A stretch of 64,000 nt of DNA from an uncultured bacterium (GCA_964506075.1 CAZDKO010000001.1:25637-89636); one strand, 5' to 3'. Positions 1 to 51,815 are shown, counted from the first letter of the stretch. A program made the numbers and translations. The notes: generated by a model from the sequence alone, not told the origin.

Positions 1-171
1 CAAAACAACCGCGATAGTTTAGAAGTAGGCAGCGATACCTTTACCGGCGGGCAATATGAAATAAAATTAAGCGGACTGGACCCTAATCTTTATTTTGTCA
101 AGGTTGAAGCTTTAGATGACGAGGGCCGGGTGATTCATACCCTGATAACTTATCTTTATAAACCGGATTAA
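1..171 (+). CDS. 3' end of an ORF that begins upstream of the window (partial; function unknown)
   Basis: Open frame from position 1 to TAA at 169-171 (..QNNRDSLEVGSDTFTGGQYEIKLSGLDPNLYFVKVEALDDEGRVIHTLITYLYKPD*). It sits directly upstream of the pseudopilin genes in the same orientation. No diagnostic motif. Confidence 0.3.
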   Translation, partial: QNNRDSLEVGSDTFTGGQYEIKLSGLDPNLYFVKVEALDDEGRVIHTLITYLYKPD

Positions 172-301: not shown

Positions 302-844
302 ATGAAAAGCAAAGGATTTAGTTTAGTGGAACTGCTTATTGCTCTGCTTTTGGTGACTGTCATCAGCACAGTTTTTCTGAATATTTTTAAACGCGGCGGC
401 CTGGCCTGGCAATTGGGTGACCGCCGGGTGCAGTCTTACCAGAATGCCCGGGTGATTATGGGACAATTTTTCCGGGAGCTGCCGGTGGTTTATGTGAACG
501 CCACGGAAACTTTTGTCGGCTCAGCCGACCAGATTAGGTTTTTTGCCAATCTCTGGTCAGGAGATAGCGGTGCCGAGGGACTGGTAGAATTGGGTTATCG
601 TAAAAGGTCCGGAGAATATGTTTTGGAAAGATTATATAAAACAGACCCGGCCAGCGCCGATACCTGGCGGGAGCTTGCTTTTTATTTTAAAAGTATCACC
701 TTTACTTATTATGACGGTTCTACCGCCGAAACGTCCTGGAATTCCGCGGCTAAAAACAATAAGCCGCCGTCTAAAGTGGAAATTACCGTGACTATGGAGG
801 ATGATAAAACATACACCACGGCGGTAAGTATCTTGGAGAGATAA
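302..844 (+). CDS. Minor pseudopilin with a prepilin-type N-terminal cleavage/methylation domain (GspJ/PilW-like)
   Basis: The N-terminus MKSKGFSLVELLIALLLVTVISTVF has the canonical G|F-x-L-x-E prepilin peptidase site (Glu at +5) followed by a hydrophobic helix. Length is 180 aa. It is followed by a GspK-like gene. Confidence 0.6.
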   Translation: MKSKGFSLVELLIALLLVTVISTVFLNIFKRGGLAWQLGDRRVQSYQNARVIMGQFFRELPVVYVNATETFVGSADQIRFFANLWSGDSGAEGLVELGYRKRSGEYVLERLYKTDPASADTWRELAFYFKSITFTYYDGSTAETSWNSAAKNNKPPSKVEITVTMEDDKTYTTAVSILER

Positions 845-940
845 TATTAAAGTACCAAAGTATCAAAGAGTCAGAGTGTCAGAGAATTCCTGAAAAGTTG
901 TAGGAATAAAAGGGGATTGGAAACAGAGATAGGTTAAATT

Positions 941-3900
941 ATGATTAAAACGAGATTTAAAAATCAGGGCGGGGTCATAATCATTATGGCCCTGGTGGTT
1001 CTGGTTATTGCCTCGGTGCTGGCGGTAACCTTTGCTACCAGTATGCGCCTGGAGGAAAAAACGGCCGCTACTTTTAGAAAACACGGAAAAGTTTTTTATA
1101 TCGCCCAGGCGGGGTATGAATACGCCCTGGCTATTTTGCGAAAAGATAAAAATGAAGAATCAAGCCGTCCCTACGACGCTTTGAACGAGGAATGGCGGAC
1201 GTTATTTAACGGCAGCGGCGAAGAGGAAGAACCGGCGGTCAATCTGGACGGTATCAATTCCAACGGTATAAACAGCGATGGAAAAGATGCCCGCTGGATT
1301 TATTTACACCGTGACCCGGAAGATGATGAATCTCCGTTAATCGGCCGTTTTGCCGTTTTAATCGTAGATGAAGCCAGTAAACTGAGTCTCCACGCTTCCG
1401 GTAGCGGCCAGCAAAACCAGGGCTGGACGCCTTTTGAAAACGATTTAACCAATTTAAAAAATCCTAATACCGGCGCCAGTTTGTTTGATTCTTCCACGGC
1501 GCCAAATTTAATCAATTACCGCCAGGGTGATAAAACCGGCGGCGGGGTAAACACCAAATACCCGGGTGATAGCGGTGATGACGATAGTGATAACACCCCT
1601 CTGGAAAATGACGGTATTGATAATGACGGCGACGGCGTAATTGATGAGGCTTTTGAAGGAACGAACGAGCCGGATGAATACGTCTCCCGGATTCCCTACG
1701 GTACCGGTGATGAGCTTGATTTTGCCCTGAAGCTGGTTGATGAGTTAAGAATGGTGAGTGGCATCGGGGAAACGACGACGCGGATGTGTAAGAATTTTAC
1801 CACCGTTGATGCCGGGGCTCAAACGCGATACTGGGATAGCGCCACCTCCAGCTGGGAGAGTCAGGAAAATATTAACGCCCTGACTTCAGTTGATACTCTA
1901 TTTAACCTGATGACCGGGGCCGGGATTAGCAGTGAAAATGCGGCCCGCTGGACGGCGAACACAATTGACTATGGCGACCGGGACGGTGTCCCGACGGTAA
2001 TAGAGACCGGCGGCAAAAAATATCTCGGTGTCGAAGGACTCCAGATAAATGAGGTGATGAGCTGGGTTAATCATCGGGGGGATACTTATAAGGGTCCGAT
2101 AATCCTGGATAATTTTGTCGACACCCCGACCAACTGGAATGACCCGAGCAGTTTTAGTAATAATGGCAACTGGAATAATGCTCTTTGGACGGCTCAAGGA
2201 AACGTTGACGGAGGAGAAGATACTTGGACCTGGCCCTGGGATAACGGCACCTACGACATTTATATTTATAGAGATTCAAGTTTAAACGGCCGGGATTTTC
2301 ATTATAAATTTGAAGACGGTATCAGTCCGGGCGTGGACTTGGAAGGCGACACAGATTTTTATCTGAGTGACCGGTATCTGGTTCCCGGGGTTAAAATTTC
2401 TAACGGAGAAATAAGACTAACTTTAAGGGCCAGTGTCGGGGGGGAAACCTTTAGCTGGTTCCAGTGTCTAAGTTTAAATCCCACTAATCCTAATGATCCC
2501 AATACGGGAACAAGGAGAAATAGCTTTGCCGACCCTCCTCCTGTTGGTCCGGTGCAGGACCCACCGCCGGGAGATCCCTGGGATGACAGCACATGGGCGG
2601 CCAAAGGCTGGCAAACCGGAGGAAAAAGTACCTGGGTTTGGACTGTTTCTAACGGCACTTATGATGTTTATTTATATCAGAATATAGGTTGGCCGGGCAC
2701 CAATGACTATGATTATAGGTTTGAAGAAGGTGAAGCCGGAGATATTTCGGGGACGGCTACTTTCGGCTCCAGCGGCACTAATATTTATTATCACGTCGGT
2801 AACGTGACCGTCAGCGGTGGTCAGCTTACCTTGAAACTGACGGCTTGTTACACCTGGACGAGGAGCCGCTTTGAACAAATCGGTGTTGAAGGAGCTGAAT
2901 ACGTAGAATTGGTTAACCTTTCCTCCAGTCCCATCACCATTGATAAAAGTTGGGGGATAAATGTCGGCGGGAATATTATTCTGGATAATAACACGGCTAA
3001 GATTGATTCTTCCAGCCCCGGTACCACCTATAAATTCACCTGGTTTGAAGGAGACGCGGCTACTTTCACCATTCCCGGCTCAACGGCGCCAAATTACAGT
3101 TATTTTATTGCCGCCGACAGCCGCTACGCGATGGATTACCGCCACGCCTGGGCCGATGCTTATAAAGACGGCGTCTGGGGGTCGCCGGGGAATTTGGGTA
3201 ATGAACCGGGAGATTTAGGGGTAATCGGCGATTTAGAAATATCCAACACCGGGGGAGTAAATATTTCTCTGGTTAGAGAAGTAAACGGAGAAGAAATCGT
3301 GGTTGATTTTGTCCCCTGCACCACCACTGCTTCCGGATTCGGGACTTCGGCCTGGGATACGGTCGCACCCCAGGAAGATAAAAGTGTGGAAAGGAACAGC
3401 GCTTATAAAGACGATAGCTCCTGGGCTTTAACTACCGAAGGCTGGGGACGGGGAACACCCGGGGCTGCCAATACCGGTGGTGCCTCGGTTGCCGTCGCGG
3501 TTAAGAACCGGCCCTTTGCCTCGCCGGGATTTATGACCGAGGTTTATAAAGGTACGGGGGATTACTCCACCAATAAATTGATCACTTCGGATATCAAAGA
3601 TTTCGTGAGCGTTCTCACTACCGCTTATTACCGCCTGGAAGTGGAAAATACCACTTCACCTCCGGGCTGGTCAACCGATACGGGGATGGACGGTACCCCC
3701 CGTTATCTTTCGCCTACGGCCGGCAGTAACGCCACTTTAAGCTGGACCGGCCTTCATATCCCGGACGGGACTTATAATCTTTTTGTAGCCGGCGGCATCG
3801 GCGGAAAGTTCCAGTGTCCTTCGGGCACGGCCCGAGTAATGCGGCCCGACGGCATAGTTTATGCCGGTACCGCTGCCGTCAGTAGCGGGAGTTTAACCGT

Positions 3901-4405
3901 CGGTGTTTATGGCGACGGCACCAATCTTTATTCACTGGACTATATTTTACTGGTGCCTGAAAAAGAAAGCCCGCTGCTTATCGGTAAAATCAACATCAAT
4001 ACGGCCAGCGAGCAGGTTTTAAACGCCCTTCCTCCGGCTTTCTGGACCGGGTTTTATATTATTGATTATCGAAACGGCGCCGATAATAAAGACGGGACGA
4101 CGGACGATAATCCTTTTGGAAACATTGGAGAATATCTGTCCATTACCGGATTAAGCGAGGCGCAGTTAGCCGAAGCTTTCCAGAAACAGGCCAGTCTTAT
4201 CACCGTTCATTCCGACATTTTTGAAATTATTGTCGTCGGCCAGGAAATAGAGGATTTAACCAATACAGGTATCTTTGACGACCCGGAGGCCGAAGGGAGA
4301 ACCGGGGAAGCGGACCTGGTCACCGGGAAGGAGAAAATCAGGGCCATTGTTGACCGCTCCTATGACCCACCCAGAGTATTGTATTTCCGCCGGGAACCCG
4401 AGTAA
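941..4405 (+). CDS. Giant (1154 aa) GspK/PilX-like minor pseudopilin with about 800 aa of inserted repeat and Asp-rich modules
   Basis: The N-terminus NQGGVIIIMALVVLVIASVLAVTFATSMRLEEKTAATF..IAQAGYEYALAIL matches the GspK pseudopilin N-domain (no Glu5, conserved R-x-E..A..AG). The C-terminus INTASEQVLNALPP is the GspK helix-hairpin-helix signature. The interior has two copies of a roughly 35-aa module (TWTWPWDNGTYDIYIYRDSSLNGRDFHYKFEDG and TWVWTVSNGTYDVYLYQNIGWPGTNDYDYRFEEG) and Asp-rich loops (DNDGDGVIDE, GDSGDDDSDN). Confidence 0.55.
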   Translation: MIKTRFKNQGGVIIIMALVVLVIASVLAVTFATSMRLEEKTAATFRKHGKVFYIAQAGYEYALAILRKDKNEESSRPYDALNEEWRTLFNGSGEEEEPAVNLDGINSNGINSDGKDARWIYLHRDPEDDESPLIGRFAVLIVDEASKLSLHASGSGQQNQGWTPFENDLTNLKNPNTGASLFDSSTAPNLINYRQGDKTGGGVNTKYPGDSGDDDSDNTPLENDGIDNDGDGVIDEAFEGTNEPDEYVSRIPYGTGDELDFALKLVDELRMVSGIGETTTRMCKNFTTVDAGAQTRYWDSATSSWESQENINALTSVDTLFNLMTGAGISSENAARWTANTIDYGDRDGVPTVIETGGKKYLGVEGLQINEVMSWVNHRGDTYKGPIILDNFVDTPTNWNDPSSFSNNGNWNNALWTAQGNVDGGEDTWTWPWDNGTYDIYIYRDSSLNGRDFHYKFEDGISPGVDLEGDTDFYLSDRYLVPGVKISNGEIRLTLRASVGGETFSWFQCLSLNPTNPNDPNTGTRRNSFADPPPVGPVQDPPPGDPWDDSTWAAKGWQTGGKSTWVWTVSNGTYDVYLYQNIGWPGTNDYDYRFEEGEAGDISGTATFGSSGTNIYYHVGNVTVSGGQLTLKLTACYTWTRSRFEQIGVEGAEYVELVNLSSSPITIDKSWGINVGGNIILDNNTAKIDSSSPGTTYKFTWFEGDAATFTIPGSTAPNYSYFIAADSRYAMDYRHAWADAYKDGVWGSPGNLGNEPGDLGVIGDLEISNTGGVNISLVREVNGEEIVVDFVPCTTTASGFGTSAWDTVAPQEDKSVERNSAYKDDSSWALTTEGWGRGTPGAANTGGASVAVAVKNRPFASPGFMTEVYKGTGDYSTNKLITSDIKDFVSVLTTAYYRLEVENTTSPPGWSTDTGMDGTPRYLSPTAGSNATLSWTGLHIPDGTYNLFVAGGIGGKFQCPSGTARVMRPDGIVYAGTAAVSSGSLTVGVYGDGTNLYSLDYILLVPEKESPLLIGKININTASEQVLNALPPAFWTGFYIIDYRNGADNKDGTTDDNPFGNIGEYLSITGLSEAQLAEAFQKQASLITVHSDIFEIIVVGQEIEDLTNTGIFDDPEAEGRTGEADLVTGKEKIRAIVDRSYDPPRVLYFRREPE

Positions 4406-4513
4406 TTTTTAAATAGGGCTAGCTGTACCCCATTATTTAACCAATTATTGAGTTGGTATAGCTAGCCCTATTAAACTAATGGTAAAATATTAAAAATTTT
4501 GAAAGGAGAAAGA

Positions 4514-5869
4514 ATGGAAACAAATAAAATAATTTATTCCGGCGGTATAATCTTTTTGTGTCTTTTGTTATTTATCATTATTTTTTCACCGGCTTCTTCC
4601 GCCGACGTGATTTATTTAAAAAACGGACAGAAAATGGAAGGGACGATTGAAAAGCAGGATGCAGAGAAGATTTATTTAAAAATTAAACTGGGAATAATCG
4701 GCATCAGCCGGAACCAGATTGACCGGATAGAGAAAACCGTAGAAAAAATCGCCGGGGAAGGAAAAGAGATTGAAACTGAAAAAGAAATAGTAAAGGAAGA
4801 TGATTCGGCGACCAAGAAAAAATTTGAAGAAGAGCAGATGGCAGAAGGAAAAGTTAAATATAAAGACCGCTGGGTAACTCCGGAAGAAAAGGCCATCCTG
4901 GAACTGCCTAAAATAAAAATTTCCAACCGCCGGATTTATAAAGACGGTAAATTATTTTTTATCAAGGGCATAGATTACAGCGTTAATTATCCCAAAATGA
5001 CTAATTTTAGCGATATTCCAAGAACAGTCTGGGAAAAAGATTTTAAGATGATAAAGGAATTAGGCGTAAATACCATCCGCACTTATCATCCCCTCCCGCC
5101 GGAACTGCTGGATTTAGCCGAAGAAAATGAGTTGATGGTCATAGAAGCCGTGGTTTCCCCCAACAGTGAGACAAATTATAATTCCCCGGAAGAATTAAAA
5201 AAGCTTACTGATGAAGCCGTCCGGATAGTCAAGCGGGATAAATTACGCAAATGTATTCTTATGTGGGCTATCTGGAACGACGCTCCTTTCCACTGGGAGA
5301 AAGGCGGTAACTCGGTTGAGCGTTACGGAATGGAAAAGGTAAACGGGTTTTTAGGGAAAATTTATACGGCGGTTAAGAAAGAAGATAAGAATCACCCGGT
5401 CACGGCTTCAAATATGCTTGATTTACCGGGTTCAAATCTGGGATTTGATTTTCTGGATGCTATTGGTATCAACGCTTTTATCGGTATTGCCAAAGAGACC
5501 GGCTGGTTTGAAGGTATCTATACTCAGGAAAAAGCCCGTAACGACATAGAAAAACTGAAAGAGATTTCCGAAAAATATAATAAACCCGTCTATATCGCCG
5601 AGACCGGTTACAGCACCTTCTGCCGGAGCGAAAGACAGGATAAGATAATCAGAGAACAGATTGTTGCCTGCGGAGATGAGCTTCCCGGCGTGATAATTTT
5701 TGAGTGGGCCGATGAATGGTGGAAAGCCGGAAACCCCGCGGTTCAGGATAATAACATTGAAGAACACTGGGGGATAACCGATGCCTATCGCAAACCCAAA
5801 CCCGGCTATGAGGCCGTTTCGGAAATGTTTAAATCCATCAGGACCGAATCAAAGGGATATGTAAGATAA
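4514..5869 (+). CDS. Secreted TIM-barrel glycoside-hydrolase-like protein (ETG nucleophile motif as in GH17)
   Basis: RBS aaaggag lies 6 nt upstream of ATG 4514; the track ORF starting at 4499 includes the RBS. The protein has a signal peptide, a Lys/Glu-rich linker, then GVNTIRTYHP..ILMWAIWND..YIAETGYST..FEWADEWW, which resembles the acid/base and ETGW nucleophile segments of family-17-like beta-glycanases. The family call is weak. Confidence 0.4.
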   Translation: METNKIIYSGGIIFLCLLLFIIIFSPASSADVIYLKNGQKMEGTIEKQDAEKIYLKIKLGIIGISRNQIDRIEKTVEKIAGEGKEIETEKEIVKEDDSATKKKFEEEQMAEGKVKYKDRWVTPEEKAILELPKIKISNRRIYKDGKLFFIKGIDYSVNYPKMTNFSDIPRTVWEKDFKMIKELGVNTIRTYHPLPPELLDLAEENELMVIEAVVSPNSETNYNSPEELKKLTDEAVRIVKRDKLRKCILMWAIWNDAPFHWEKGGNSVERYGMEKVNGFLGKIYTAVKKEDKNHPVTASNMLDLPGSNLGFDFLDAIGINAFIGIAKETGWFEGIYTQEKARNDIEKLKEISEKYNKPVYIAETGYSTFCRSERQDKIIREQIVACGDELPGVIIFEWADEWWKAGNPAVQDNNIEEHWGITDAYRKPKPGYEAVSEMFKSIRTESKGYVR

Positions 5870-5870
5870 A

Positions 5871-6090
5871 AGTAGTTAGTAGACAGTAGATAGTAGTCAG
5901 TAGACAGTAATTTTTAATCAGCAGGCTCTTTAATGCCTAATTCCTAAATGACTAATGACGAATGAATGACCAAATAACTAATAAGGGTACAGAAACCAGA
6001 GCACGGAGTACAAACTCGTCTGTTATCTGTTCCCTGTACTTTTTAGTTTCTTGTTTTTCTCTGTTCTCAGTACTCTGGTATCTGTAATCT
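5871..6090. repeat. Composite intergenic repeat, copy A (AGTAGNN, AATGACN and ACAGANN heptad arrays); homologous in inverse orientation to 14581-14790
   Basis: agtagtt|agtagac|agtagat|agtagtc|agtagac then cagtaatttttaatcagcaggctctttaatgcctaattcctaaatgac then aatgact|aatgacg|aatgaat then ggtacagaaaccagag. The reverse complement of 14690-14790 matches at about 85% over more than 80 nt. Confidence 0.7.
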
Positions 6091-6244
6091 TTATTTTTAT
6101 TTGACTTTTAAATTAACATATGTTATATTTATAGCACTTATATCCTCCTATATTAATGTTGATAACACTCTTAATTTTATTATGTCTGGATTGATAATTC
6201 CTCCCCAAGTACATACCGTTTTAATGAAAGGTTAATTCATTTAT

Positions 6245-7882
6245 ATGAACAAACCCAAGATTACTATCGGTGTAGATATCGGTTCAAGTTGTATTAAAGT
6301 AGTTGAATTGAAAGAAACAAAATCCGGAATAACCCTTAAACGAGCCGGCCTCATAAATACACAGCTTGACCCGGCCAATCCCCCGACTTCAAAAGGTCAA
6401 TATCTGGCCGCCACCCTGGCGAAGTTATTGGCCGTCCTTAACATAAAGAATGTTTCAATTATTACTTCTGTTCCCGGCCAGTCAGTTCTAATTCGGTTAA
6501 TCAAACTTCCCCCTATTCCCGAAGATAAGATTGAGGAAGTCATAAAATATGAAGCCCAGCAACAGGTTCCTTTTTCCCTTGACGAGGTGGTTTGGGACTA
6601 TTATTTGCTTAAGAGAAAAAAAATATTAGAAATGGAAGTGCTGCTGGTAGCGATAAAAATAAATTTAATCGGAGAGATTCAGGATAAACTCGGGCCACAC
6701 CTTAACGCCAGTATCATTGATGTGGCTCCGCTGGCTCTCTATAATTGTGTGCGGTATAACAAGGATTACGAGAACGATAAAAAAGGCGTGGTCGTCATAG
6801 ATATCGGAGCTGAATCCACCGATATTATTTTTTTTAAAGAAGAAGATGTCTGGATAAGAAGTTTTCCTCTGGGGGGGAATAGTTTTACCCAGGTTCTCCA
6901 GAAGGAATTCGGCCTTTCTTACGCTGAAGCGGAACGCATTAAAAAAGGAGGGCTTAAGGACTATCCGGATGAAGAAGTTAAAAGGGTTACCAAGCCGATT
7001 ATTGAAGACTTGATAGTAGAGGTTCAGCACGCTATCGGCTATTATCGAAGCCAGGTTGAAGGATTAACTATTGGAGAGGTGATTTTAACCGGCGGTAACA
7101 GCCGGCTCCCGAATCTGGACCATTTTTTTAGCGAGAGTTTAGGTTTGGAAGTAAAGCATATTGACTGTTTTAAACGAATAAAAAGGGAACCAAATACGAA
7201 AATTTTTGTCGAAGATAAATGGGATGAAATTGAACCTTACCAGCATCTCTTCGGAGTAGCGGCCGGTCTGGCCCTGAGAGATAAAACCAAATGTGCGGTA
7301 GAAATTAACCTTCTCTCCCAGGAACTGGTAAAAAAGAAGACCAGTAAGCGTAAAAAAGAGTCTATAGCCGTTACGTTAATCATTTTTTTTATTATTCTGG
7401 GAAGTGGTTTTTTTATGCTGCGCCGTAGTTTCTCACACTGGCAGGCGAAACTTACTGAAACCCAGAGGCTTTATAATAAAGAATATAGTGTTTACCGGCC
7501 GGAAATAGAAACTTTAAAAAAAGAAAAAAGCCTTCTGGAAGGCCAGGTCGAAGTGATGTATCAACTTCTAGGCAAGAAAATGATGTGTTTAGAGTTATGT
7601 AGAGCTATAGGGAAGAATCTGACCGAAGAAATCTGGATAGACAGTTTGTCTTTTCCCAGAGATTCTGAGAGGGCGGAAGAAAAGGATAAGGAATTTCTTT
7701 TTTTAAAGGGTAAAGCGATGTCATTTGACGTAATTAATGAATTTATGCAGAAGTTAAAAGCGGATACCGCCTATATATCCAAAATAGAACCTTTGGCATC
7801 TAATTCCATAAAAATAGATGATAAAGAATTTATTGAGTTTTTTTTAGAAGGAAAACTTGCTTTGAAAGTAGACAGTAGATAG
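6245..7882 (+). CDS. pilM: Type IV pilus assembly PilM-PilN fusion protein
   Basis: The N-terminus KITIGVDIGSSCIKVVELKETKSGITLKRAG is the PilM actin-like ATPase start. At about residue 345 EINLLSQE matches the PilN INLLP motif. A single TM helix follows (IAVTLIIFFIILGSGFFML) and then a coiled-coil periplasmic region, as in PilN. The last codons overlap the AGTAGNN repeat. Confidence 0.65.
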   Translation: MNKPKITIGVDIGSSCIKVVELKETKSGITLKRAGLINTQLDPANPPTSKGQYLAATLAKLLAVLNIKNVSIITSVPGQSVLIRLIKLPPIPEDKIEEVIKYEAQQQVPFSLDEVVWDYYLLKRKKILEMEVLLVAIKINLIGEIQDKLGPHLNASIIDVAPLALYNCVRYNKDYENDKKGVVVIDIGAESTDIIFFKEEDVWIRSFPLGGNSFTQVLQKEFGLSYAEAERIKKGGLKDYPDEEVKRVTKPIIEDLIVEVQHAIGYYRSQVEGLTIGEVILTGGNSRLPNLDHFFSESLGLEVKHIDCFKRIKREPNTKIFVEDKWDEIEPYQHLFGVAAGLALRDKTKCAVEINLLSQELVKKKTSKRKKESIAVTLIIFFIILGSGFFMLRRSFSHWQAKLTETQRLYNKEYSVYRPEIETLKKEKSLLEGQVEVMYQLLGKKMMCLELCRAIGKNLTEEIWIDSLSFPRDSERAEEKDKEFLFLKGKAMSFDVINEFMQKLKADTAYISKIEPLASNSIKIDDKEFIEFFLEGKLALKVDSR

Positions 7883-7915
7883 TAAACAGTAGTTAGTAGT
7901 CAGTAGTAAATAGTC
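7867..7915. repeat. AGTAGNN heptad tandem array (about 7 units)
   Basis: agtagac|agtagat|agtaaac|agtagtt|agtagtc|agtagta|aatagtc. This is the same word family as 5871-5905 and 14745-14790. Confidence 0.65.
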
Positions 7916-7952
7916 GGTTACCGAGCGACTAGATACGAGATGCGGAGTGTGA

Positions 7953-8723
7953 ATGGCAAAAAATAAATTTGATAGTTCTCTTTTAATAGTCATCGCCATA
8001 ATGATAGTGGTTATGACGGTTTATTTTTTAGGCTTGGTGCGTCCTTATTTATCAAAACGTAAAAAGATAGTTAAAGAGATTAATCAAAAAATTGATGAAC
8101 TGGAATTATTCAGGAAGGAAAAAGGCGGAGTTACTTCTCAGGAATTAATTGATTCCCTTAGGGCAGACCAGGATGATTACCGCAAAAAAATAGAATTTTT
8201 AAAGAAATATCTTGGGGATTTCAAGGTTGCTTTCCCTTCGGGGGTTACCCAGAAAGGTTTATTTTTTAAAGAGCAGGCGTATCAAAGTGAACGCCGTTTA
8301 AGAGAAAATGCCGAGAATAAAGGGATGGTCTTGCCTGATTTTCTGGGTTTTGATAAAGGGGTTCCTAAGGAGGAAAACGCAGAATTGCTGCTCTGGGAAT
8401 TAATGGCCGTTGAGAAGATTGTCGGGACTTTAATTGAAAGCGGAATAGCGTCTTTATCTTCGCTGAACATAAGAACAGTAGAGGAACGCACGCAGTCAGA
8501 GGTGATTTATGATGTTATTCCTGTTGAAATTAAATGCCAGGGACGCACGCAGCCTTTACTTAAATTTGTTTATGATTTAAGCCGCGCTGATTATCCCCTC
8601 ATAATAGAGAAAGCGGATATTCAGAAGGCCATGTCGACCGGAAAAGATAATTTAGAGATAAATTTAACCATAGATGGTATCCGTTTAAAAAAATCTGATG
8701 GAGATAAAGAGAAAAACATATAG
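7953..8723 (+). CDS. pilO: PilO-like pilus assembly protein (N-terminal TM helix plus coiled coil)
   Basis: One N-terminal TM helix (LLIVIAIMIVVMTVYFLGLV), a coiled-coil segment and a C-terminal alpha/beta region. It sits between the pilM-N fusion and pilP-pilQ. The call rests on position and architecture, not a strong motif. Confidence 0.4.
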   Translation: MAKNKFDSSLLIVIAIMIVVMTVYFLGLVRPYLSKRKKIVKEINQKIDELELFRKEKGGVTSQELIDSLRADQDDYRKKIEFLKKYLGDFKVAFPSGVTQKGLFFKEQAYQSERRLRENAENKGMVLPDFLGFDKGVPKEENAELLLWELMAVEKIVGTLIESGIASLSSLNIRTVEERTQSEVIYDVIPVEIKCQGRTQPLLKFVYDLSRADYPLIIEKADIQKAMSTGKDNLEINLTIDGIRLKKSDGDKEKNI

Positions 8724-9168
8724 GGTGGCGGTATCTTTAATTCTGGCCGGGATTATGGGCGCTAAAATCGTTCAGGCCGAAGAGATCGGTTTTCAACCCA
8801 AAATTTTTGACTTACCCCGGCTGGAAAAGATTAAAAATGAATCCTTTGATAATTTTTGGCAGGATATTAACGAAAGGGATATTTTTTCTTCTCCAAAATT
8901 AGATAAGGTGTCTCAGGAAGTAGTTGCTCCGCCTCAAGAAAAGGTTAAGATACCGGAAACGAATTTAATCTATCGGGGAAGCCTCGTGGTGGGAGAAGAA
9001 CAATTGGCTATGATTGAAGTAGTCAAAGACGGTATGAATAAAAGTTACTTTTTGAGGAAAGGAGAATATATAGAAGGGTTTAGAATAGTTGACATCAATA
9101 GGGAATTTGTGTTAATCTATAGTCAGAAGAAAGGCGAACAAAAGCTTTTTCTTCTGGAGGATAATTAA
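8698..9168 (+). CDS. PilP-like small periplasmic pilus assembly protein (candidate)
   Basis: Signal peptide MEIKRKTYRVAVSLILAGIMGAKIVQA|EE. It is a 156-aa protein immediately upstream of the secretin and overlaps the pilO-like gene by 26 nt. Confidence 0.35.
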   Translation: MEIKRKTYRVAVSLILAGIMGAKIVQAEEIGFQPKIFDLPRLEKIKNESFDNFWQDINERDIFSSPKLDKVSQEVVAPPQEKVKIPETNLIYRGSLVVGEEQLAMIEVVKDGMNKSYFLRKGEYIEGFRIVDINREFVLIYSQKKGEQKLFLLEDN

Positions 9169-9187
9169 AAACGACGGAGGTTAGAGG

Positions 9188-11803
9188 ATGAAGAAAGCAA
9201 CGGTTCTTTTGGTAGTTGTGGGGCTAATGCTGCTGGGGGGGGCTTTAGGCTGGAGTGTATCCAGCAATGAGGTTATAAGTATAGGAGTTGAGAAACTCCC
9301 TGACAAAGACTTAGTAACCATCAGAACTGGGACGGAGGTTCATTATACTTATTTTAAATTAAAAAGCAGTAATCTGGAAGAGCCGGACCGGATCGTAATT
9401 GATGTATTAGAAACCGGCCGGACCCGGACGCCGAAGGTCATCCCGGTCGGGACAGAAGTAATTGAGCAGATTCGCACCGGTGTTTACGAAGACAAACAGA
9501 TACGGGTGGTAATTGACTTAAAAGGCGATTATTCTTATAAAGTAGGGAAAAAAGGTAATGATATTATGGTTTATGTGGATAATCCGGTCAGAGCCGCCGT
9601 TCCCGCCCGGGATATACAAAAGGGAACCTTAGCTGAAGACGTTTCCAGTCCTCTTTCGCAGGAAGAAATGGTTCGCCGGTATTATCTGAAAGGTAAAGAG
9701 CTTTATATTGAAGGAAAACAGTACGAAGCTAAAAAAGAATTTGAAAAGGTTTTGACCCTTGACCCTGCACATGTCTGGGCGAAGAGGTATCTGGCGGAGA
9801 TTAAAGAAGAAGAAGGCGCTTTAAAAACACAAGCTAAAGAATTATTGTCTGAACAGATAGGAGAGCTGCAAACATCCCAGGAAAGGGAGTTTATGCAGCA
9901 TTATGGCGCCGGTAAAGCTTATTACGACGAGAAAAGATATTTTGAAGCTATGGAAGAATTTAAAAAAGCTAATGAGCTATTGCCCGACCATAGATTCAGC
10001 GAAGAAGTTAATGCTTATATTTTAAAGTCACAGAAAAATTTACAAAAGACCCGAAGCGATGAAAAATCGGCACGGATTCAATATTTAATCGATGCCGGCC
10101 GAAGCGCCTATATGGCTAATGATTATTCCCGGGCTAAAGAATTATGGAGCAAGATTTTAGAGGTGGACCCGTATAATACACAGGCCTCGGCTTTGATTGC
10201 CAGGGCTGAAAAAGCAATGCTTGACAAAGAAGGGAAAAACGTTGAGGCTCAAAAAAGAATGGAGGAAAAAGCCCGGATTTTAGATGTAGAAAAGAATTTT
10301 TTACGAAAGCCTTATAAAGTTGGACCGGAAAAACCTGAATTAGATATATTGACGGCCAAGGTTGCCGGTGTCGGCAGAAAAGAAAAGGTTTCACGTTTTC
10401 TGGGAGAAAAAGCGACCCAGAAAGTTACTTTAGATTTTAAAGAAGCCAATATCAGGGATGTGATTCAGCAGCTTCATCAATGGACCGGGGTGAATATTAT
10501 TTTAGATGAAGCGGTTTTTAGCGATATAGAACCCACTTTAACCATTTATCTTACTGACGTAACCTTGATTGAAGCTTTGGAGTATATTATAAAAGCCAAA
10601 GGGCTTGATTACCAGTTAACGGAGGGGGTTATTTTTGTGACCACCCCGGAAAGACTCCAGGCCGAAGAAAAAATGGAGACCAGGATTTATCATTTACGCA
10701 AGGGTTTAGCTACCCACACTGTATTTAGTGAGCAGGCGATGGAGCCCAGAAAAGCGGTGGAAAAGGAGGTTTATGCGGAACAAGCCACCGTTCAAAAAGA
10801 AATCACTCTTAAGGACATTCTGGAAAAGAGTATTTCCTGGCCCGAAGGAAGCAAAATTACTCTCATTGAAAGGACCGGTTCTTTAATTGTCACCAACACT
10901 ACTTCTAATTTAATGATTATAGAGGATATTTTAAAAGAATTTGATGCTTCCCCCATCCAGATAATGATTGAGGCCCGTTTTGTTGAAGTCGGCGAAGGCG
11001 GTTTAAAAGAATTAGGGATGGAATGGAAACTGGATACAGACTGGGGTTTTGACCGTGTTTCCGGCAAGGGTAATAAAATTCAGGTTAACAAAGGACAAGT
11101 CAGCGAATTTCCTAAATTAGGCAGCCACAGATTTATTAAAGATATAGATGGTTCAACAATTGATAGTCTTGGTTCAATTGATTTGACCGTCGCCGGCATA
11201 CTTACCACTCCCCAGTTTGAAGCCGTTCTTCATGCGATTGAACAGGACGAAAAGACGAATCTTCTTTCTTCACCCAAGGTTACTACCATTAATGGGCAGG
11301 GAGCGGTTATAAAGGTCGTCCGGGAATATATCTATCCCACTGCTTATAAAACGACTGCTGCTGAATACAATTCAGCCGGCGTCAAGGTAAAAGATGCCAC
11401 CTCCACCCCGGAAAAATTCGTTACCCGTGATGCCGGGATACTGCTTAAGGTTGTACCCCGGGTAGGTATGGATAAAAAAATGATTAATCTAACGATTGTC
11501 CCGGAAGTCAGCGAATTAGGGGAATGGTATGATTACGGCACCGTAGAAACGCCGTATAAACAGCCGTTCTTTGATTCCAGGAAATGTATCACCAGTATTG
11601 TCGTTAACGATGGAGACACCGTAGTTCTGGGAGGATTAATCAAGGAGACGGTTGAGCATATTCGGGACAAAGTTCCTATTTTAGGAGACATTCCTCTTCT
11701 GGGTACGGCGTTCCGCCGCGATTACGACCGGGTAACCAAAAACAATTTAATCGTTTTTGTTACGGCGCGTATTATTGAACCGACCGGGGAAAATTACCGT
11801 TAA
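9188..11803 (+). CDS. pilQ: Type IV pilus secretin PilQ with an N-terminal AMIN domain and an inserted TPR region
   Basis: Signal peptide, then an AMIN-like beta domain (..IRVVIDLKGDYSYKV..). TPR-like repeats follow (YYLKGKELYIEGKQYEAKKEFEKVLTLDP; AGKAYYDEKRYFEAMEEFKKANELLPDH; GRSAYMANDYSRAKELWSKILEVDPYN). The C-terminal secretin signature is VPILGDIPLLGTAFRRDYDRVTKNNLIVFVTARIIE. Confidence 0.8.
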   Translation: MKKATVLLVVVGLMLLGGALGWSVSSNEVISIGVEKLPDKDLVTIRTGTEVHYTYFKLKSSNLEEPDRIVIDVLETGRTRTPKVIPVGTEVIEQIRTGVYEDKQIRVVIDLKGDYSYKVGKKGNDIMVYVDNPVRAAVPARDIQKGTLAEDVSSPLSQEEMVRRYYLKGKELYIEGKQYEAKKEFEKVLTLDPAHVWAKRYLAEIKEEEGALKTQAKELLSEQIGELQTSQEREFMQHYGAGKAYYDEKRYFEAMEEFKKANELLPDHRFSEEVNAYILKSQKNLQKTRSDEKSARIQYLIDAGRSAYMANDYSRAKELWSKILEVDPYNTQASALIARAEKAMLDKEGKNVEAQKRMEEKARILDVEKNFLRKPYKVGPEKPELDILTAKVAGVGRKEKVSRFLGEKATQKVTLDFKEANIRDVIQQLHQWTGVNIILDEAVFSDIEPTLTIYLTDVTLIEALEYIIKAKGLDYQLTEGVIFVTTPERLQAEEKMETRIYHLRKGLATHTVFSEQAMEPRKAVEKEVYAEQATVQKEITLKDILEKSISWPEGSKITLIERTGSLIVTNTTSNLMIIEDILKEFDASPIQIMIEARFVEVGEGGLKELGMEWKLDTDWGFDRVSGKGNKIQVNKGQVSEFPKLGSHRFIKDIDGSTIDSLGSIDLTVAGILTTPQFEAVLHAIEQDEKTNLLSSPKVTTINGQGAVIKVVREYIYPTAYKTTAAEYNSAGVKVKDATSTPEKFVTRDAGILLKVVPRVGMDKKMINLTIVPEVSELGEWYDYGTVETPYKQPFFDSRKCITSIVVNDGDTVVLGGLIKETVEHIRDKVPILGDIPLLGTAFRRDYDRVTKNNLIVFVTARIIEPTGENYR

Positions 11804-11820
11804 AAATATTTTCCCGGTTG
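11776..11820 (+). terminator. Candidate intrinsic terminator overlapping the pilQ stop
   Basis: ccggggaaaat..(13-nt loop)..attttcccgg forms an imperfect 10-bp stem and is followed by ttgattttgtt. Confidence 0.35.
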
Positions 11821-11990
11821 ATTTTGTTAAATGTTTAACTGCCGTTAGCCGACTTAGTTAGATAGTTAGATTTGAAACGTTCGTAATTTTTTGATTTATT
11901 TGATTTGTCATGCCGTAGATTTATCTCTGGCGAAAAGTTTCCAAAACCTACAGCTCTTCAAATTACTCGGTTTATTCATTAATAAGAACC

Positions 11991-12860
11991 ATGCCGAAAG
12001 AAATATATCTGATTGATGGTAATTCTTATGCCTATAGAGCTTTTTACGCTCTGGGAAAACTTACCACTTCTCAAGGAAAGCCAATTGGAGCAGTTTATGG
12101 TTTTTATAACATGCTTTTCAGCTTAATCAGCGAAAAGAGACCGGAATACCTGTCTATTGTCTTTGACCATCCGTCGCCGACTTTCAGGCATAAGAAATTT
12201 GAGGAATATAAAATTCACCGCCGGCCAATGCCTGAAGACTTAAAAGGACAAATTGCTTTAATTAAAGATATTGCTGTAACCATGGATATCTCGGTAATGG
12301 AACAAGCCGGCTTTGAGGCCGATGATATTTTAGCTACCCTGGCAAAAAAATTCGAAAAAGATTTTATGATATTTGTTGTCACCGGGGATAAAGATATTTT
12401 ACAGCTGATTAATTCAAAAATAAAAGTTATTGACACCCATAAGGATAATCTGGTTTATGATGAGGAAAAGGTGAAAGAGCGATACGGCTTTAAGCCGGTC
12501 CAAATTGTGGATTTCATTGCTCTTGCCGGAGATGCTACCGACAATATTCCGGGAGTCCGGGGGATAGGCAGTAAAACAGCCGTGGAGCTCCTTCAGGAAT
12601 TTGGAACCCTTGAAAATATTTACCGGAATCTGGATAAAGTTAAAGGGGAAGCAAAACAAAAAATTCTCCGCGAAAATTATGACCAGGCTAATATCAGCCG
12701 GGAATTAGCTCTTTTAAATTGCCGGGTGCCCATGGAAGTTAACCCGGAGGATTTACGCTGGGTAAAATTTGACAGAGAAAAAATAAAAGCAATTTTTAGA
12801 GACCTGGAATTTAACCGTTTGATTAAACGGCTGGACGAATTACCTTTAGTTTGTACTTAA
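11991..12860 (+). CDS. polA: DNA polymerase I, 5'->3' exonuclease domain fragment (frame 0)
   Basis: LIDGNSYAYRAFYAL (5'-nuclease motif, compare E. coli LVDGSSYLYRAYHAF) and ..REKIKAIFRDLEFNRLIKRL (end of the nuclease domain). The frame terminates at 12858-12860 inside the interdomain linker. Confidence 0.8.
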   Translation: MPKEIYLIDGNSYAYRAFYALGKLTTSQGKPIGAVYGFYNMLFSLISEKRPEYLSIVFDHPSPTFRHKKFEEYKIHRRPMPEDLKGQIALIKDIAVTMDISVMEQAGFEADDILATLAKKFEKDFMIFVVTGDKDILQLINSKIKVIDTHKDNLVYDEEKVKERYGFKPVQIVDFIALAGDATDNIPGVRGIGSKTAVELLQEFGTLENIYRNLDKVKGEAKQKILRENYDQANISRELALLNCRVPMEVNPEDLRWVKFDREKIKAIFRDLEFNRLIKRLDELPLVCT

Positions 12861-14518: not shown

Positions 14519-14580
14519 GAAGGTAGGTTCTCCGGTTTACCAGTTAGCCGGTTGATTGGTTAAATGATTAACTGGTGAGC

Positions 14581-14790
14581 GGTGAATGGTAAGATAGTGA
14601 AAGATTAAAAGCCATAATCTAAAATGCCGAATGACTAAATCCGAATGCCGAATAAAAGATCTAATGCTCAAATGACTCAAAATGTTTTTTTCTGTTCTCT
14701 TATTAGGTCATTTAGGAATTAGGCATTAAAGGGTCTACTGATTAAAAATTACTGACTACTAACTACTGACTACTGTCTACTATTTACTGA
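14581..14790. repeat. Composite intergenic repeat, copy B (inverse orientation relative to 5871-6090)
   Basis: aatgccg|aatgact|aaatccg|aatgccg heptads; tcatttaggaattaggcattaaagggtctactgattaaaaattactg; then ctgacta|ctaacta|ctgacta|ctgtcta, which is the reverse complement of the AGTAGNN array. The reverse complement aligns to 5871-5960. Confidence 0.7.
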
Positions 14791-14801
14791 AATGAGAAAG
14801 A

Positions 14802-15431
14802 ATGTTAATCATCGGTTTAACCGGTAATATCGGTTCGGGAAAAAGCACCGTGGCCAAAATGTTTCATCGTTTAGGGGCAGCGGTAATTGACGTTGATAAG
14901 CTCGCTCATAAACTTCTTTCCCCGGGAAGTTTAGCATGGAAAGAGGTTGTCACTATTTTCGGAAGAAGAATTCTTAACGCCGACCAAAAAATTAACCGGC
15001 AGAGATTAGGAAGAATCGTCTTTGATAACCAGCAGAGGCTGAAAAAACTCAATAAGGTTATCCATCCGCATCTGGTTCATCAGGTAGAAAATGAGGTTAG
15101 CCGGCTAAAAAGAAATAAAAAGGAAATTATAATTATAGAAGCAGCTTTAGTTATAGAAATAGAGCCTTTATTTAAGATGATTGATTATCTGATTATGATT
15201 AAGATTGACAGAAAAAATCAGATTTCCCGACTTAAAAAAAATAAGAAGCATCTTACCAGAGATGAAATTGTAAAAAGAATTAAGTCTCAAATGCCTCAAC
15301 AGGAGAAAATTAAATTAGCCGATTTTGTTATCAATAATACGGGGAGTTTACAATCAACGCAAAAACAAGTCAAAAAAATTTGGGATGAGGATATTAAATT
15401 ATTAAGGAGGAAATCTTATGGATATTGTTGA
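14802..15431 (+). CDS. coaE: Dephospho-CoA kinase
   Basis: [21 protein letters not shown] contains a P-loop at the N-terminus. Length is 209 aa and the CoaE layout is typical. Confidence 0.85.
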
Positions 15432-51658: not shown

Positions 51659-51815
51659 GTCTGATATAAAATTTCAACTTATTTTCTATTTTTTCTCCGG
51701 ACATTTCACCCTATTACCGCAATTTGATTTCTGATAAAAAAATATGCTATAATTAACCTGTACAAAAACCTACAGAGATTAATTACCAGAATTACCACCT
51801 TATTATAATAATAGA

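What the first reader, a model, noticed from the sequence alone, without database searches (positions are those of the whole stretch)
941..4405. Giant GspK/PilX-like minor pseudopilin (1154 aa) with inserted tandem modules and Asp-rich loops, sitting at the head of a pilMNOPQ locus
Canonical GspK is about 330 aa. Here the GspK N-domain (TM anchor, R-x-E..AQAG) and the C-terminal HhH (INTASEQVLNALPP) are present, but they bracket about 800 aa of extra sequence. That sequence includes two copies of a roughly 35-aa W/Y-rich module (TWTWPWDNGTYDIYIYRD..FHYKFEDG and TWVWTVSNGTYDVYLYQN..YDYRFEEG), several Asp-rich DxDxDG-type loops and Thr/Ser/Gly-rich stretches. Tip-located minor pseudopilins determine what the fibre binds. 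In type IV pili a separate large PilY1 adhesin usually does this, and none is present here. This looks like a pseudopilin that has taken on the tip-adhesin role itself.
Basis: partly seen in the sequence, partly recalled or inferred. Interest (0 to 1): 0.7.

Follow-up and report, generated by a model that had tools for sequence, protein, structure and literature searches.

The report
Giant GspK tip pseudopilin with sugar-binding-like modules
This Omnitrophota gene encodes a 1154-residue version of the small protein that caps type II secretion and type IV pilus filaments, carrying about 655 extra residues that fold like an Ig-like domain plus carbohydrate-binding modules; it probably acts as a built-in tip adhesin, but it belongs to a large unstudied family and is not a one-off.

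Summary
ORF 941..4405 (+) encodes 1154 aa. It was assembled identically in two other sequencing runs. Full-length homologues at 61-70% identity exist, and GC3 is uniform along the gene, so it is not a chimera.

The ends are GspK-like:
- NCBIfam T2SS_GspK gives E=3e-12, and PilX_N scores above its cutoff.
- Family profiles hit XcpX and Pfam T2SSK.
- A GspJ-like gene lies directly upstream in every full locus examined.

- The modules are about 90-100 aa, not 35.
- The main Asp-rich loop belongs to the conserved GspK-like part, not the insert.
- The gene ends a G-H-I-J-K pseudopilin operon.
- The family is widespread: 376 cluster representatives at E<=1e-30, and 81 of the 162 retrieved share the core layout.

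Most likely it is a modular tip pseudopilin that displays glycan-binding modules and needs no PilY1. The function is inferred, not shown. It is a new variant of a known kind (modular pilins). Interest is moderate.

The parts
941..4405 (+). Whole gene: 1154-aa modular GspK-family minor pseudopilin
   Evidence: ORF. Identical on two independent assemblies. Homologues P0002 and P0003 have 70% and 61% identity over the full length.
941..1153 (+). aa 1-71: short leader, invariant G11, hydrophobic alpha1 helix (prepilin-like, no Glu at +5)
   Evidence: PilX_N aa 11-60, 26.2 bits. T2SS_GspK aa 9-87, E=3e-12. AF2 helix 9-71. Strongest Kyte-Doolittle window starts at aa 11.
1154..1420 (+). aa 72-160: first beta-strands of the pilin fold, including the acidic loop NLDGINSNGINSDGKDARW
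   Evidence: AF2 strands 119-123, 133-143 and 148-151. Conserved D116, W119, D143, E144 and N149.
1421..1996 (+). aa 161-352: first, expanded half of the GspK-like alpha-domain
   Evidence: Helices 164-346. 125 of the retrieved family proteins match this segment by blastp. One family member hits Pfam T2SSK_1st.
1562..1681 (+). aa 208-247: nearly invariant acidic motif ..DDD.DN..LENDGIDNDGDGVIDE..EGTNEPDEY, a putative Ca2+ loop containing the only strict DxDxDG
   Evidence: Invariant or nearly invariant D213, D214, D224, D227, N228, D229, G230, D235, E239, G240, P244 and E246. Motif scan. Ca2+ binding is inferred.
1997..2095 (+). aa 353-385: conserved strand region GVEGLQINEVM that opens the beta-rich insert
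   Evidence: G363, E365 and E371 are invariant. In short relatives (P0010, P0011) this strand leads almost directly into the LTD core.
2153..2440 (+). aa 405-500: W/Y-rich module 1, a divergent CBM6-like beta-sandwich
   Evidence: Repeat alignment z=19.7. hhalign mod1 vs mod2 gives 93.9%. All-beta in AF2, pLDDT 53-89.
2561..2860 (+). aa 541-640: W/Y-rich module 2; by blastp a second copy is detected only in the closest relatives P0002 and P0003
   Evidence: hhalign mod2 vs C-domain gives 94.5%, E=7e-8. Missing in P0004, which is otherwise 62% identical.
2861..3445 (+). aa 641-835: lamin-tail (LTD) Ig-like domain, ..AEYVELVNLSSSPITIDKSW..
3518..3970 (+). aa 860-1010: CBM6/35-like beta-sandwich (RLEVEN...LDYILLVP)
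3971..4210 (+). aa 1011-1090: second half of the alpha-domain, a helix-hairpin-helix (GKININTASEQVLNALP) with a clade-specific acidic insertion NGADNKDGTTDD
   Evidence: T2SSK E=0.0037 for the query. Family profile vs XcpX 5vtm_X residues 174-217, E=2.5e-5, and vs ComEA, E=1.6e-9.
4211..4405 (+). aa 1091-1154: C-terminal beta-strands that complete the pilin sheet in cis
   Evidence: AF2 strands 1093-1104, 1126-1138 and 1145-1153, pLDDT 57-83. Conserved S1091, D1092, F1094, V1137 and D1138. Role inferred from PMC13533445.
302..844 (+). GspJ-like minor pseudopilin (180 aa), the predicted partner of GspK in the tip complex
   Evidence: N_methyl and T2SSJ Pfam hits. A GspJ-like gene lies directly upstream of the giant K gene in L006-L011.
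1..171 (+). 3' end of a further upstream gene cut by the window start; by synteny with L009 probably another pseudopilin
   Evidence: Translation. The L009 operon order is G-x-x-J-K. Identity not established.
4499..5869 (+). GH2_C-like TIM-barrel protein with an N-terminal hydrophobic segment; conserved between the K gene and pilM in this lineage only
   Evidence: 67% identical orthologue in the same position in L009.
6245..7882 (+). PilM actin-like domain + TM + PilN-like domain in one protein (GspL-like layout; Amuc_1101 family)
7953..8723 (+). GspM/PilO-like protein (T2SSM_b; Amuc_1100 family)
8698..9168 (+). Small protein (156 aa), weak GspC-like hit, in the position of PilP
   Evidence: E=0.0018. 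Orthologue in L009.
9188..11803 (+). Secretin with AMIN, TPR and N0/STN domains (Amuc_1098 family)

Best explanation
The gene encodes a modular member of the GspK/PilX family, the minor pseudopilin that caps type IV filaments. The host is a Candidatus Omnitrophota bacterium.

The GspK scaffold is complete. It has a prepilin-like leader and hydrophobic helix, a pilin beta-sheet, an alpha-domain made of two HhH/SAM-like halves, and C-terminal strands that close the sheet in cis.

At the junction between the two alpha-domain halves sits a beta-rich insert of about 655 aa. In solved GspK tip complexes this part points away from the filament. The insert has two tandem CBM6-like modules, a lamin-tail Ig-like domain and a third, well-formed CBM6/35-like domain.

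Inferred mechanism:
- The protein assembles with the GspJ-like protein encoded just upstream, and with a GspI-like protein, into the initiation and tip complex.
- It rides at the distal end of the filament that the PilM-N / GspM-like / secretin machine builds.
- It presents the CBM-like modules to bind a glycan on another cell or on a polymer.
- Because it supplies its own terminal beta-strand, no PilY1/PilC adhesin is needed.

Shown: the gene is real; family relationship of the two ends; fold class of the insert; the internal duplication; J-K synteny; wide distribution of the family.

Inferred: tip location, Ca2+ binding by the acidic loops, glycan binding, and whether the filament reaches the cell surface.
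For: - Real gene: ORF, identical in two independent assemblies, full-length homologues, uniform GC3.
- GspK ends: T2SS_GspK E=3.1e-12 and PilX_N above cutoff. After deleting the insert, 15/15 family members hit T2SS_GspK, best E=2.3e-23. The family profile hits XcpX 5vtm_X at E=2.5e-5. Pfam T2SSK hits 18/36 members. Foldseek on the full-length model hits XcpX 6utu_C with probability 0.96.
- Topology: helix 9-71, strands 119-151, helices 164-346, all-beta 353-1006, helices 1024-1083, strands 1093-1153.
- Modules: z=19.7 between the two copies. hhalign links module 2 to the C-terminal CBM-like domain at 94.5%.
- Synteny: a GspJ-like gene is directly upstream in L006-L011, and G-type pseudopilin genes head the operons. 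PilM to secretin clusters follow in the window, L009 and L010.
- No PilY1 in the window.
- Literature: modular pilins carry adhesive or lectin modules (PMC8179133, PMC9934059). GspK, CpaL and Com PilK homologues supply the terminal strand in cis where PilY1 is absent (PMC13533445). Omnitrophota pili are linked to host attachment (PMC10066038; taxonomy).
Against: - No sequence-level hit of the query to any CBM or LTD Pfam model. The fold matches are moderate: TM to target 0.52-0.57 and Foldseek E about 1e-3.
- Ligand-binding residues were not examined.
- Module 2 and the linkers are modelled poorly (pLDDT 35-57).
- The query scores far below the GspK equivalog cutoff (47-49 bits against 130).
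- The machine has T2SS-like traits: a T2SSG-type major subunit in relatives, a GspM-like protein, a GspL-like PilM-N fusion, and a secretin that scores slightly better as GspD than as PilQ. The filament may therefore be a short periplasmic pseudopilus and not an adhesive fibre.
- The assembly and retraction ATPases were not seen.
- The family's C-terminal HhH resembles ComEA more strongly than GspK, so DNA is an alternative ligand.
Confidence: 0.6

Rival explanations
1. It is the tip of a type II secretion pseudopilus, not an adhesive pilus. The giant insert stays in the periplasm or the secretin vestibule. There it recognises or pushes cargo, for example the adjacent GH2-like enzyme or other glycoproteins, or it gates the secretin.
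For: - The best named match is T2SS GspK.
- Relatives have T2SSG, GspH and T2SSJ-type genes upstream and a T2SSF platform protein nearby.
- The downstream proteins are a GspM-like protein, a weakly GspC-like protein, a PilM-N fusion with GspL layout, and a secretin scoring 211 bits as GspD against 198 bits as PilQ.
- A gene for a likely exported GH2-like TIM-barrel protein sits inside the cluster in two lineages.
Against: - PilM_2 (E=1e-44), TIGR01175 pilM above its cutoff, and an AMIN domain on the secretin are type IV pilus traits.
- A cap of about 125 kDa with three lectin-like modules has no known role in T2SS.
- The GH2-like gene is absent from the other loci carrying family members.
- Omnitrophota loci of this kind are read as T4aP in the literature (PMC10066038).
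Confidence: 0.2
2. It is a DNA receptor at the tip of a competence-type pilus, by analogy with ComZ. The ComEA-like HhH and the lamin-tail domain, which accompanies extracellular nucleases, would capture extracellular DNA.
For: - The family profile hits ComEA HhH domains (8dfk E=1.2e-9; E=1.6e-9).
- ComEA models hit 8/15 insert-deleted relatives.
- In L010 a 534-aa HHH_3 protein lies inside the PilM-secretin cluster.
- LTD occurs in extracellular nucleases such as ExeM (PMC6085458; found, only the listed title and abstract seen).
- ComZ is a precedent for a minor pilin with a large inserted DNA-binding domain (PMC6561018).
Against: - In the query the HhH is degenerate (HHH_3 E=0.09) and is interrupted by an acidic insertion, NGADNKDGTTDD.
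- An HhH/SAM-like pair is an intrinsic structural part of every GspK.
- The protein is acidic overall: D+E 14% against K+R 7%.
- The best fold matches of the insert are carbohydrate-binding modules.
Confidence: 0.12
3. It is an artefact: an assembly chimera, or a fusion of a GspK gene with an unrelated gene.
For: - The gene is unusually long.
- Its GC content (0.50) is higher than that of its neighbours (0.37-0.43).
Against: - The identical 1154-aa gene was assembled independently from two other runs.
- Collinear homologues exist at 70%, 61% and about 36% identity, and there are dozens of end-to-end profile matches.
- GC3 is uniform across the N-part, the insert and the C-part, and the upstream GspJ-like gene shares it.
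Confidence: 0.01

Closest known systems
GspK / XcpX, the tip minor pseudopilin of type II secretion systems (PDB 3CI0, 5VTM, 6UTU)
   Same: - Prepilin-like N-terminal helix without Glu5.
- A pilin beta-sheet interrupted by an alpha-domain with HhH/SAM-like halves.
- C-terminal strand supplied in cis.
- The gene follows gspJ.
- Acidic loops; canonical GspK binds Ca2+ (PMC6211770).
- Profile hits.
   Different: - 1154 aa against about 300-330 aa.
- A roughly 655-aa beta-rich insert (LTD plus three CBM6-like modules) between the two alpha-domain halves.
- Scores well below the equivalog cutoff (47-49 bits against 130).
- The machine context is the PVC/Omnitrophota Amuc_1098-1102-like cluster with PilM.
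Modular type IV pilins: S. sanguinis PilB (vWA) and PilC (ConA-like lectin), CofB/TcpB, T. thermophilus ComZ
   Same: A pilin module carries a bulky ligand-binding module for display at the filament tip. Lectin or carbohydrate-binding modules are a documented class (PMC8179133, PMC9934059). In ComZ the module is inserted inside the pilin fold rather than appended (PMC6561018).
   Different: Here the carrier is a GspK-type pilin and the modules are inserted into its alpha-domain. The combination of LTD with CBM6/35-like modules was not found in the literature searched.
CpaL/TadG of Tad pili and MshQ of MSHA pili
   Same: These are large tip-associated proteins. A minor-pilin-like domain is completed by the extreme C-terminal beta-strand, and a large, partly dispensable middle region probably handles surface interaction (PMC13533445, PMC11870444).
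   Different: No sequence relationship was tested or seen. CpaL belongs to the Tad (T4c) lineage. MshQ is a separate protein that donates its strand in trans.
Verru_Chthon cassette protein A (TIGR02600, model length 1296)
   Same: A giant GspK-like protein of PVC bacteria that is encoded with pilin-like cassette partners. Its N-terminus matches the query and 13/15 relatives. The upstream GspJ-like protein weakly matches cassette protein C.
   Different: Only the first ~64 residues match, and the score (20-25 bits) is far below the cutoff of 332. The middle parts are unrelated as far as tested.
PilY1/PilC tip adhesins of type IVa pili
   Same: The proposed role is the same: a large adhesin held at the tip by the minor-pilin complex.
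   Different: No PilY1 beta-propeller domain. Here the adhesin candidate is part of the pilin itself, not a separate non-pilin protein.

Membership tests
GspK (T2SS minor pseudopilin K; NCBIfam NF037980, Pfam PF03934/PF21687) | Prepilin-type N-terminus: short leader, Gly at -1, hydrophobic helix, no Glu at +5 | tested here: met
   KNQGG|VIIIMALVVLVIASVLAV. G11 is invariant in 11/11. +5 is Met. PilX_N scores 26.2 bits, above the 25.5 cutoff. NF037980 positions 1-78 align to aa 9-87.
GspK (T2SS minor pseudopilin K; NCBIfam NF037980, Pfam PF03934/PF21687) | Whole-protein score above the curated equivalog cutoff | tested here: not met
   46.7 bits for the full protein and 49 bits with the insert deleted, against a cutoff of 130. 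It is a relative, not an equivalog.
GspK (T2SS minor pseudopilin K; NCBIfam NF037980, Pfam PF03934/PF21687) | Alpha-domain with HhH/SAM-like subdomains (PF21687, PF03934) | tested here: inconclusive
   Query alone: PF03934 E=0.0037, 18 bits against a cutoff of 24.2, over only 16 residues. Family: PF03934 in 18/36, PF21687 in 1/36. The profile aligns to XcpX residues 174-217 at E=2.5e-5.
GspK (T2SS minor pseudopilin K; NCBIfam NF037980, Pfam PF03934/PF21687) | C-terminal beta-strands complete the pilin sheet in cis | tested here: inconclusive
   AF2 predicts strands 1093-1104, 1126-1138 and 1145-1153 at pLDDT 57-83. The sheet pairing could not be inspected. Foldseek hit to XcpX: probability 0.96 but E=0.024.
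GspK (T2SS minor pseudopilin K; NCBIfam NF037980, Pfam PF03934/PF21687) | Gene directly follows gspJ at the end of a gspG-H-I-J-K pseudopilin operon | tested here: met
   A GspJ-like gene lies at 302-844. The same adjacency holds in L006-L011, with T2SSG/GspH-type genes further upstream.
GspK (T2SS minor pseudopilin K; NCBIfam NF037980, Pfam PF03934/PF21687) | Forms a heterotrimeric tip complex with GspI and GspJ | not testable with these tools
   No multimer prediction was available.
Modular type IV pilins (sense of Raynaud et al. 2021, PMC8179133) | A pilin module plus at least one module that is not specific to type IV filament biology | tested here: met
   GspK-like pilin module plus LTD-like and CBM6/35-like folds.
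Lamin tail domain (Pfam PF00932) | Sequence match to the LTD model | tested here: not met
   No hit for the query even at E<=10. 15/36 relatives do hit, best E=3.3e-9.
Lamin tail domain (Pfam PF00932) | Ig-like lamin-tail fold | tested here: met
CBM6/CBM35/CBM36 carbohydrate-binding modules | Beta-sandwich (jelly-roll) fold of the family | tested here: met
CBM6/CBM35/CBM36 carbohydrate-binding modules | Sequence membership, conserved sugar- and Ca2+-binding residues, actual glycan binding | not tested
   No CBM Pfam model hits the query. Binding-site residues were not mapped. Binding needs experiment.
Verru_Chthon cassette protein A (TIGR02600) | Score above cutoff over the 1296-position model | tested here: not met
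   20.1-24.7 bits against a cutoff of 332.3; only model positions 1-64 align.
PilY1/PilC tip adhesin | C-terminal PilY1 beta-propeller domain | tested here: not met
   No such Pfam hit in the protein or in any scanned window ORF of 450 aa or more. The polA ORF (12851-14518) was not scanned.

The most novel reading that the evidence does not exclude
These giant GspK proteins may be the host- or prey-recognition determinants of ultra-small Omnitrophota and related candidate phyla. In this reading a self-contained tip adhesin needs no PilY1. Its CBM-like modules are duplicated, lost and swapped between lineages, much like phage receptor-binding proteins, and they set which cell-surface glycan the pilus grabs. 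The adjacent GH2-like enzyme would then trim that glycan.
Probability: 0.25. Interest if true: 0.65.

Novelty: new variant of a known kind. Interest (0 to 1): 0.45.

Why it matters
How type IV filaments gain binding specificity is an active question. Known answers are separate PilY1/PilC adhesins and "modular pilins".

This family shows a third layout. Lectin-like and Ig-like modules are inserted into the cap pilin GspK itself, and the family is widespread across uncultured lineages, with named relatives in Omnitrophota, Ratteibacteria, Scalindua and a MAG labelled Chlamydiae. For Omnitrophota, which are thought to attach to and exploit other cells through pili, it offers a concrete and testable candidate for the molecule that recognises the host.

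It also adds a natural example to the recent finding that a cis C-terminal strand in PilK/GspK homologues replaces PilY1. The practical value is limited until binding is shown.

Tried and rejected
- The word-indexed homologue search suggested a very rare protein (11-14 hits). The exhaustive HMMER search overturned that, with 376 representatives at E<=1e-30.
- Self-BLAST of the whole protein found no repeat. A targeted Smith-Waterman alignment with shuffles did.
- Pfam on four sub-segments of the query gave nothing for the insert.
- The full-length AF2 model built on an 11-sequence alignment was poor (pLDDT 58). It was used only for secondary structure and weak fold hits.
- The genome-contig scan used a low-specificity acidic-motif pattern. 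It returned only 5 loci and did not return the source genome.
- The afdb50 fold library was unavailable.
- I first read the insert as modules nested inside a split LTD. Pfam coordinates in relatives (P0008 LTD starts at model position 4, just before the 'IELIN' strand) leave this unresolved, so I state only that the modules lie between the conserved INEVM strand and the LTD core.
- Chimera and horizontal-patchwork readings were rejected.
- A PilY1-like role for any neighbouring gene was rejected.

Full report

ORF 941..4405 (+) starts with ATG and encodes 1154 aa, exactly as quoted. It is not an assembly artefact:
- The identical protein, with the same upstream 180-aa gene and downstream GH-like gene, sits on contigs assembled independently from SRR10178537 and SRR10178538.
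- Collinear full-length homologues exist at 70% (P0002, 1155 aa) and 61% (P0003, 1170 aa) identity.
- GC3 is the same in the N-terminal part, the insert and the C-terminal part (0.53, 0.50, 0.55).

The window comes from a Candidatus Omnitrophota genome. Its Rho protein is 77-79% identical to many Rho proteins labelled Omnitrophota.

**2. The two ends are GspK/PilX-like.**

- Residues 11-60 hit Pfam PilX_N above the gathering score (26.2 against 25.5). Residues 9-87 align to positions 1-78 of NCBIfam T2SS_GspK (E=3.1e-12, 46.7 bits, below the equivalog cutoff of 130).
- The N-terminus reads KNQGG|VIIIMALVVLVIAS. G11 is invariant in the family and residue +5 is not Glu, as in GspK.
- For the query alone the C-terminal HhH is weak (T2SSK E=0.0037). 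At family level it is clear: HHH_3 in 32/36 relatives and T2SSK in 18/36.
- I deleted the insert in silico from 15 family members. All 15 then hit T2SS_GspK (best E=2.3e-23), and 13 hit Verru_Chthon cassette protein A.
- The profile of these insert-deleted sequences aligns to residues 174-217 of P. aeruginosa XcpX (5vtm_X, E=2.5e-5).
- Foldseek on the low-confidence full-length model also recovers XcpX (6utu_C, probability 0.96, E=0.024).
- A GspJ-like gene (N_methyl + T2SSJ) lies directly upstream in the window and in loci L006-L011. GspG/GspH-type genes lie further upstream.

The termini do hit.

**3. Anatomy.**

Predicted secondary structure, in order along the protein:

| Residues | Element |
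|---|---|
| 9-71 | long helix |
| 119-151 | strands |
| 164-346 | helices |
| 353-1006 | purely beta region |
| 1024-1083 | helices |
| 1093-1153 | three strands |

This is the GspK topology: a pilin sheet interrupted by an alpha-domain, with about 655 residues inserted just before the 'GKININTAS' HhH. That places the insert at the junction of the two alpha-domain halves.

The remaining excess over a canonical GspK of about 300-330 aa lies in the first alpha-domain half. That half contains a nearly invariant acidic motif, NDGIDNDGDGxIDE..EGxDEPDE. It holds the only strict DxDxDG in the protein (aa 227). Looser acidic loops lie at aa 101-118, 343-351 and 1043-1056. Canonical GspK has two Ca2+ sites and XcpX has three (PMC6211770). 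Ca2+ binding here is plausible but inferred, and these loops are scaffold features rather than adhesin loops.

**4. The insert.**

I modelled aa 345-1015 with a 36-sequence alignment. The model has mean pLDDT 75 and pTM 0.75. Confidence is 85-96 over most of aa ~650-1005, lower for module 1 and poor for module 2 and the linkers.
- Foldseek agrees: CBM6 2cdp at probability 1.0 and lamin A/C 1ifr at probability 0.97.
- Pfam LTD hits 15/36 relatives, though not the query.

They are about 90-100 aa long (aa ~405-500 and ~541-640; score 161, z=19.7). Profile-profile comparison links them to each other (93.9%) and to the C-terminal CBM-like domain (94.5%, E=7e-8). The insert is therefore:

[conserved INEVM strand] - CBM-like module 1 - Pro-rich linker - CBM-like module 2 - LTD - CBM6/35-like domain

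By blastp, a second module copy is detected only in the closest relatives P0002 and P0003. P0004, which is 62% identical, and more distant members show a single copy. Domain-HMM scans suggest other lineages also carry two copies, but overlapping module and C-domain hits blur that count.

**5. How common is it?**

The fast word-indexed search found only 11-14 relatives. An exhaustive HMMER search of 1.84 billion cluster representatives found 36,993 hits at E<=1e-3, which includes ordinary GspK and HhH proteins. It found 4,989 at E<=1e-10 and 376 at E<=1e-30, many matching end to end at 950-1400 aa.

Domain HMMs built from the family show that 81 of the 162 retrieved sequences carry N-pilin + LTD + CBM-like domain + HhH, at 824-1808 aa and with a varying number of CBM-like modules. 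Named relatives come from Omnitrophota, Ratteibacteria, Scalindua and a MAG labelled Chlamydiae, where the protein is annotated only as 'helix-hairpin-helix domain-containing protein'. The protein is thus one member of a large, unnamed family.

**6. Context.**

Downstream genes in the window:
- a GH2_C-like TIM-barrel protein;
- a PilM + TM + PilN-like fusion (Amuc_1101 family);
- a GspM/PilO-like protein (Amuc_1100 family);
- a 156-aa protein;
- a secretin with AMIN, TPR and N0 domains (Amuc_1098 family).

The same order holds in L009, which has an IS200-type gene inserted after the K gene. L010 has a related order.

The rest of the window is housekeeping. No PilB, PilC, PilT or PilY1 was found. 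The machine mixes T4P traits (PilM, AMIN) with T2SS traits (GspK, GspM, GspL-like fusion, and a secretin scoring 211 bits as GspD against 198 bits as PilQ). I cannot tell from sequence whether it makes a surface fibre or a short pseudopilus.

**7. Mechanism.**

My best reading is a modular tip pseudopilin, at confidence about 0.6 for the functional claim. Confidence is higher, about 0.85-0.9, for 'GspK-family protein with an LTD/CBM-like insert'.

In this reading the GspK scaffold nucleates the filament with GspI/J. Its own C-terminal strands close the sheet, as shown for T2SS GspK, Com PilK homologues and CpaL where PilY1 is absent (PMC13533445). The insert projects from the distal alpha-domain and offers up to three CBM-like modules plus an Ig-like spacer for binding a glycan.

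This fits the known concept of modular pilins, including the lectin-bearing PilC of S. sanguinis (PMC8179133, PMC9934059). It also fits the proposed use of pili by Omnitrophota to attach to host cells (PMC10066038).

Rivals:
- a T2SS pseudopilus cap that handles cargo (0.2);
- a ComZ-like DNA receptor, suggested by the ComEA-like HhH of the family and by LTD's association with nucleases, but weakened by the degenerate, interrupted HhH and the acidic composition of this protein (0.12);
- an artefact (0.01).

**8. Novelty and score.**

Pilins that carry grafted binding modules are known, and so are large cis-strand tip proteins (CpaL/TadG) and giant GspK-like proteins of PVC bacteria (TIGR02600). 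The new element is the specific layout: LTD plus CBM6/35-like modules inserted into the GspK alpha-domain. No paper in the searched library links LTD with pilins in this sense.

I rate it a new variant of a known kind, with interest 0.45. It is a good, testable candidate for a host-recognition device in an uncultured phylum. It is neither unique nor surprising in principle, and its function remains inferred.

Noticed in passing
window 302-4405 compared with 4499-16674: The GspJ-like and giant GspK genes have GC3 of 0.50-0.52. The neighbouring genes (GH2-like, PilM, secretin, PolA, Rho) have 0.35-0.45. The two pseudopilin genes may have a different history or a different codon bias from the rest of the locus.
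   Followed up: partly
window 4499-5869; L009 8737-9963: A GH2_C-like TIM-barrel protein with an N-terminal hydrophobic segment and a Leptospira-type N-terminal domain (NF047433) sits between the giant GspK gene and pilM. It is conserved at 67% identity in L009 and absent from the other family loci. It could be cargo of the system or a glycan-processing partner.
   Followed up: partly
window 6245-7882: PilM (actin-like), a transmembrane segment and a PilN-like domain are fused in one 545-aa protein, which is the layout of T2SS GspL. It matches the Akkermansia Amuc_1101 family at 296 bits.
   Followed up: no
window 9188-11803: The 871-aa secretin carries an AMIN domain and about 300 aa of TPR repeats ahead of the N0/secretin core. 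It scores slightly better as GspD (211 bits) than as PilQ (198 bits).
   Followed up: no
window 11991-12860 and 12851-14518: DNA polymerase I appears as two overlapping ORFs: a 289-aa 5'-3' exonuclease part and a 555-aa polymerase part with a TTG start. This could be a natural split, a frameshift or a sequencing error.
   Followed up: no
L009 7657-8604: An IS200-type Y1 transposase gene is inserted between the giant GspK orthologue and the GH2-like gene. The junction therefore tolerates insertion.
   Followed up: no
window 44986-47709, 50450-53090, 21134-26349: Other genes suggest a focus on the cell envelope and on glycans: a 907-aa sulfatase with a GH10/GH42-like N-terminal domain, two adjacent PEP-CTERM proteins, and three tandem TPR proteins of about 560-620 aa.
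   Followed up: no
L010 20338-21942: In a distant relative's locus, a 534-aa HHH_3 (ComEA-like) protein sits between the Amuc_1100-like gene and the secretin gene, in the place of the small 156-aa protein of the window. This hints at DNA handling in some systems of this type.
   Followed up: no
L008 13061-14095: In the locus from the MAG labelled Chlamydiae, the giant GspK gene is followed on the opposite strand by a LamG/Laminin_G_3 protein instead of a pilM-secretin cluster.
   Followed up: no
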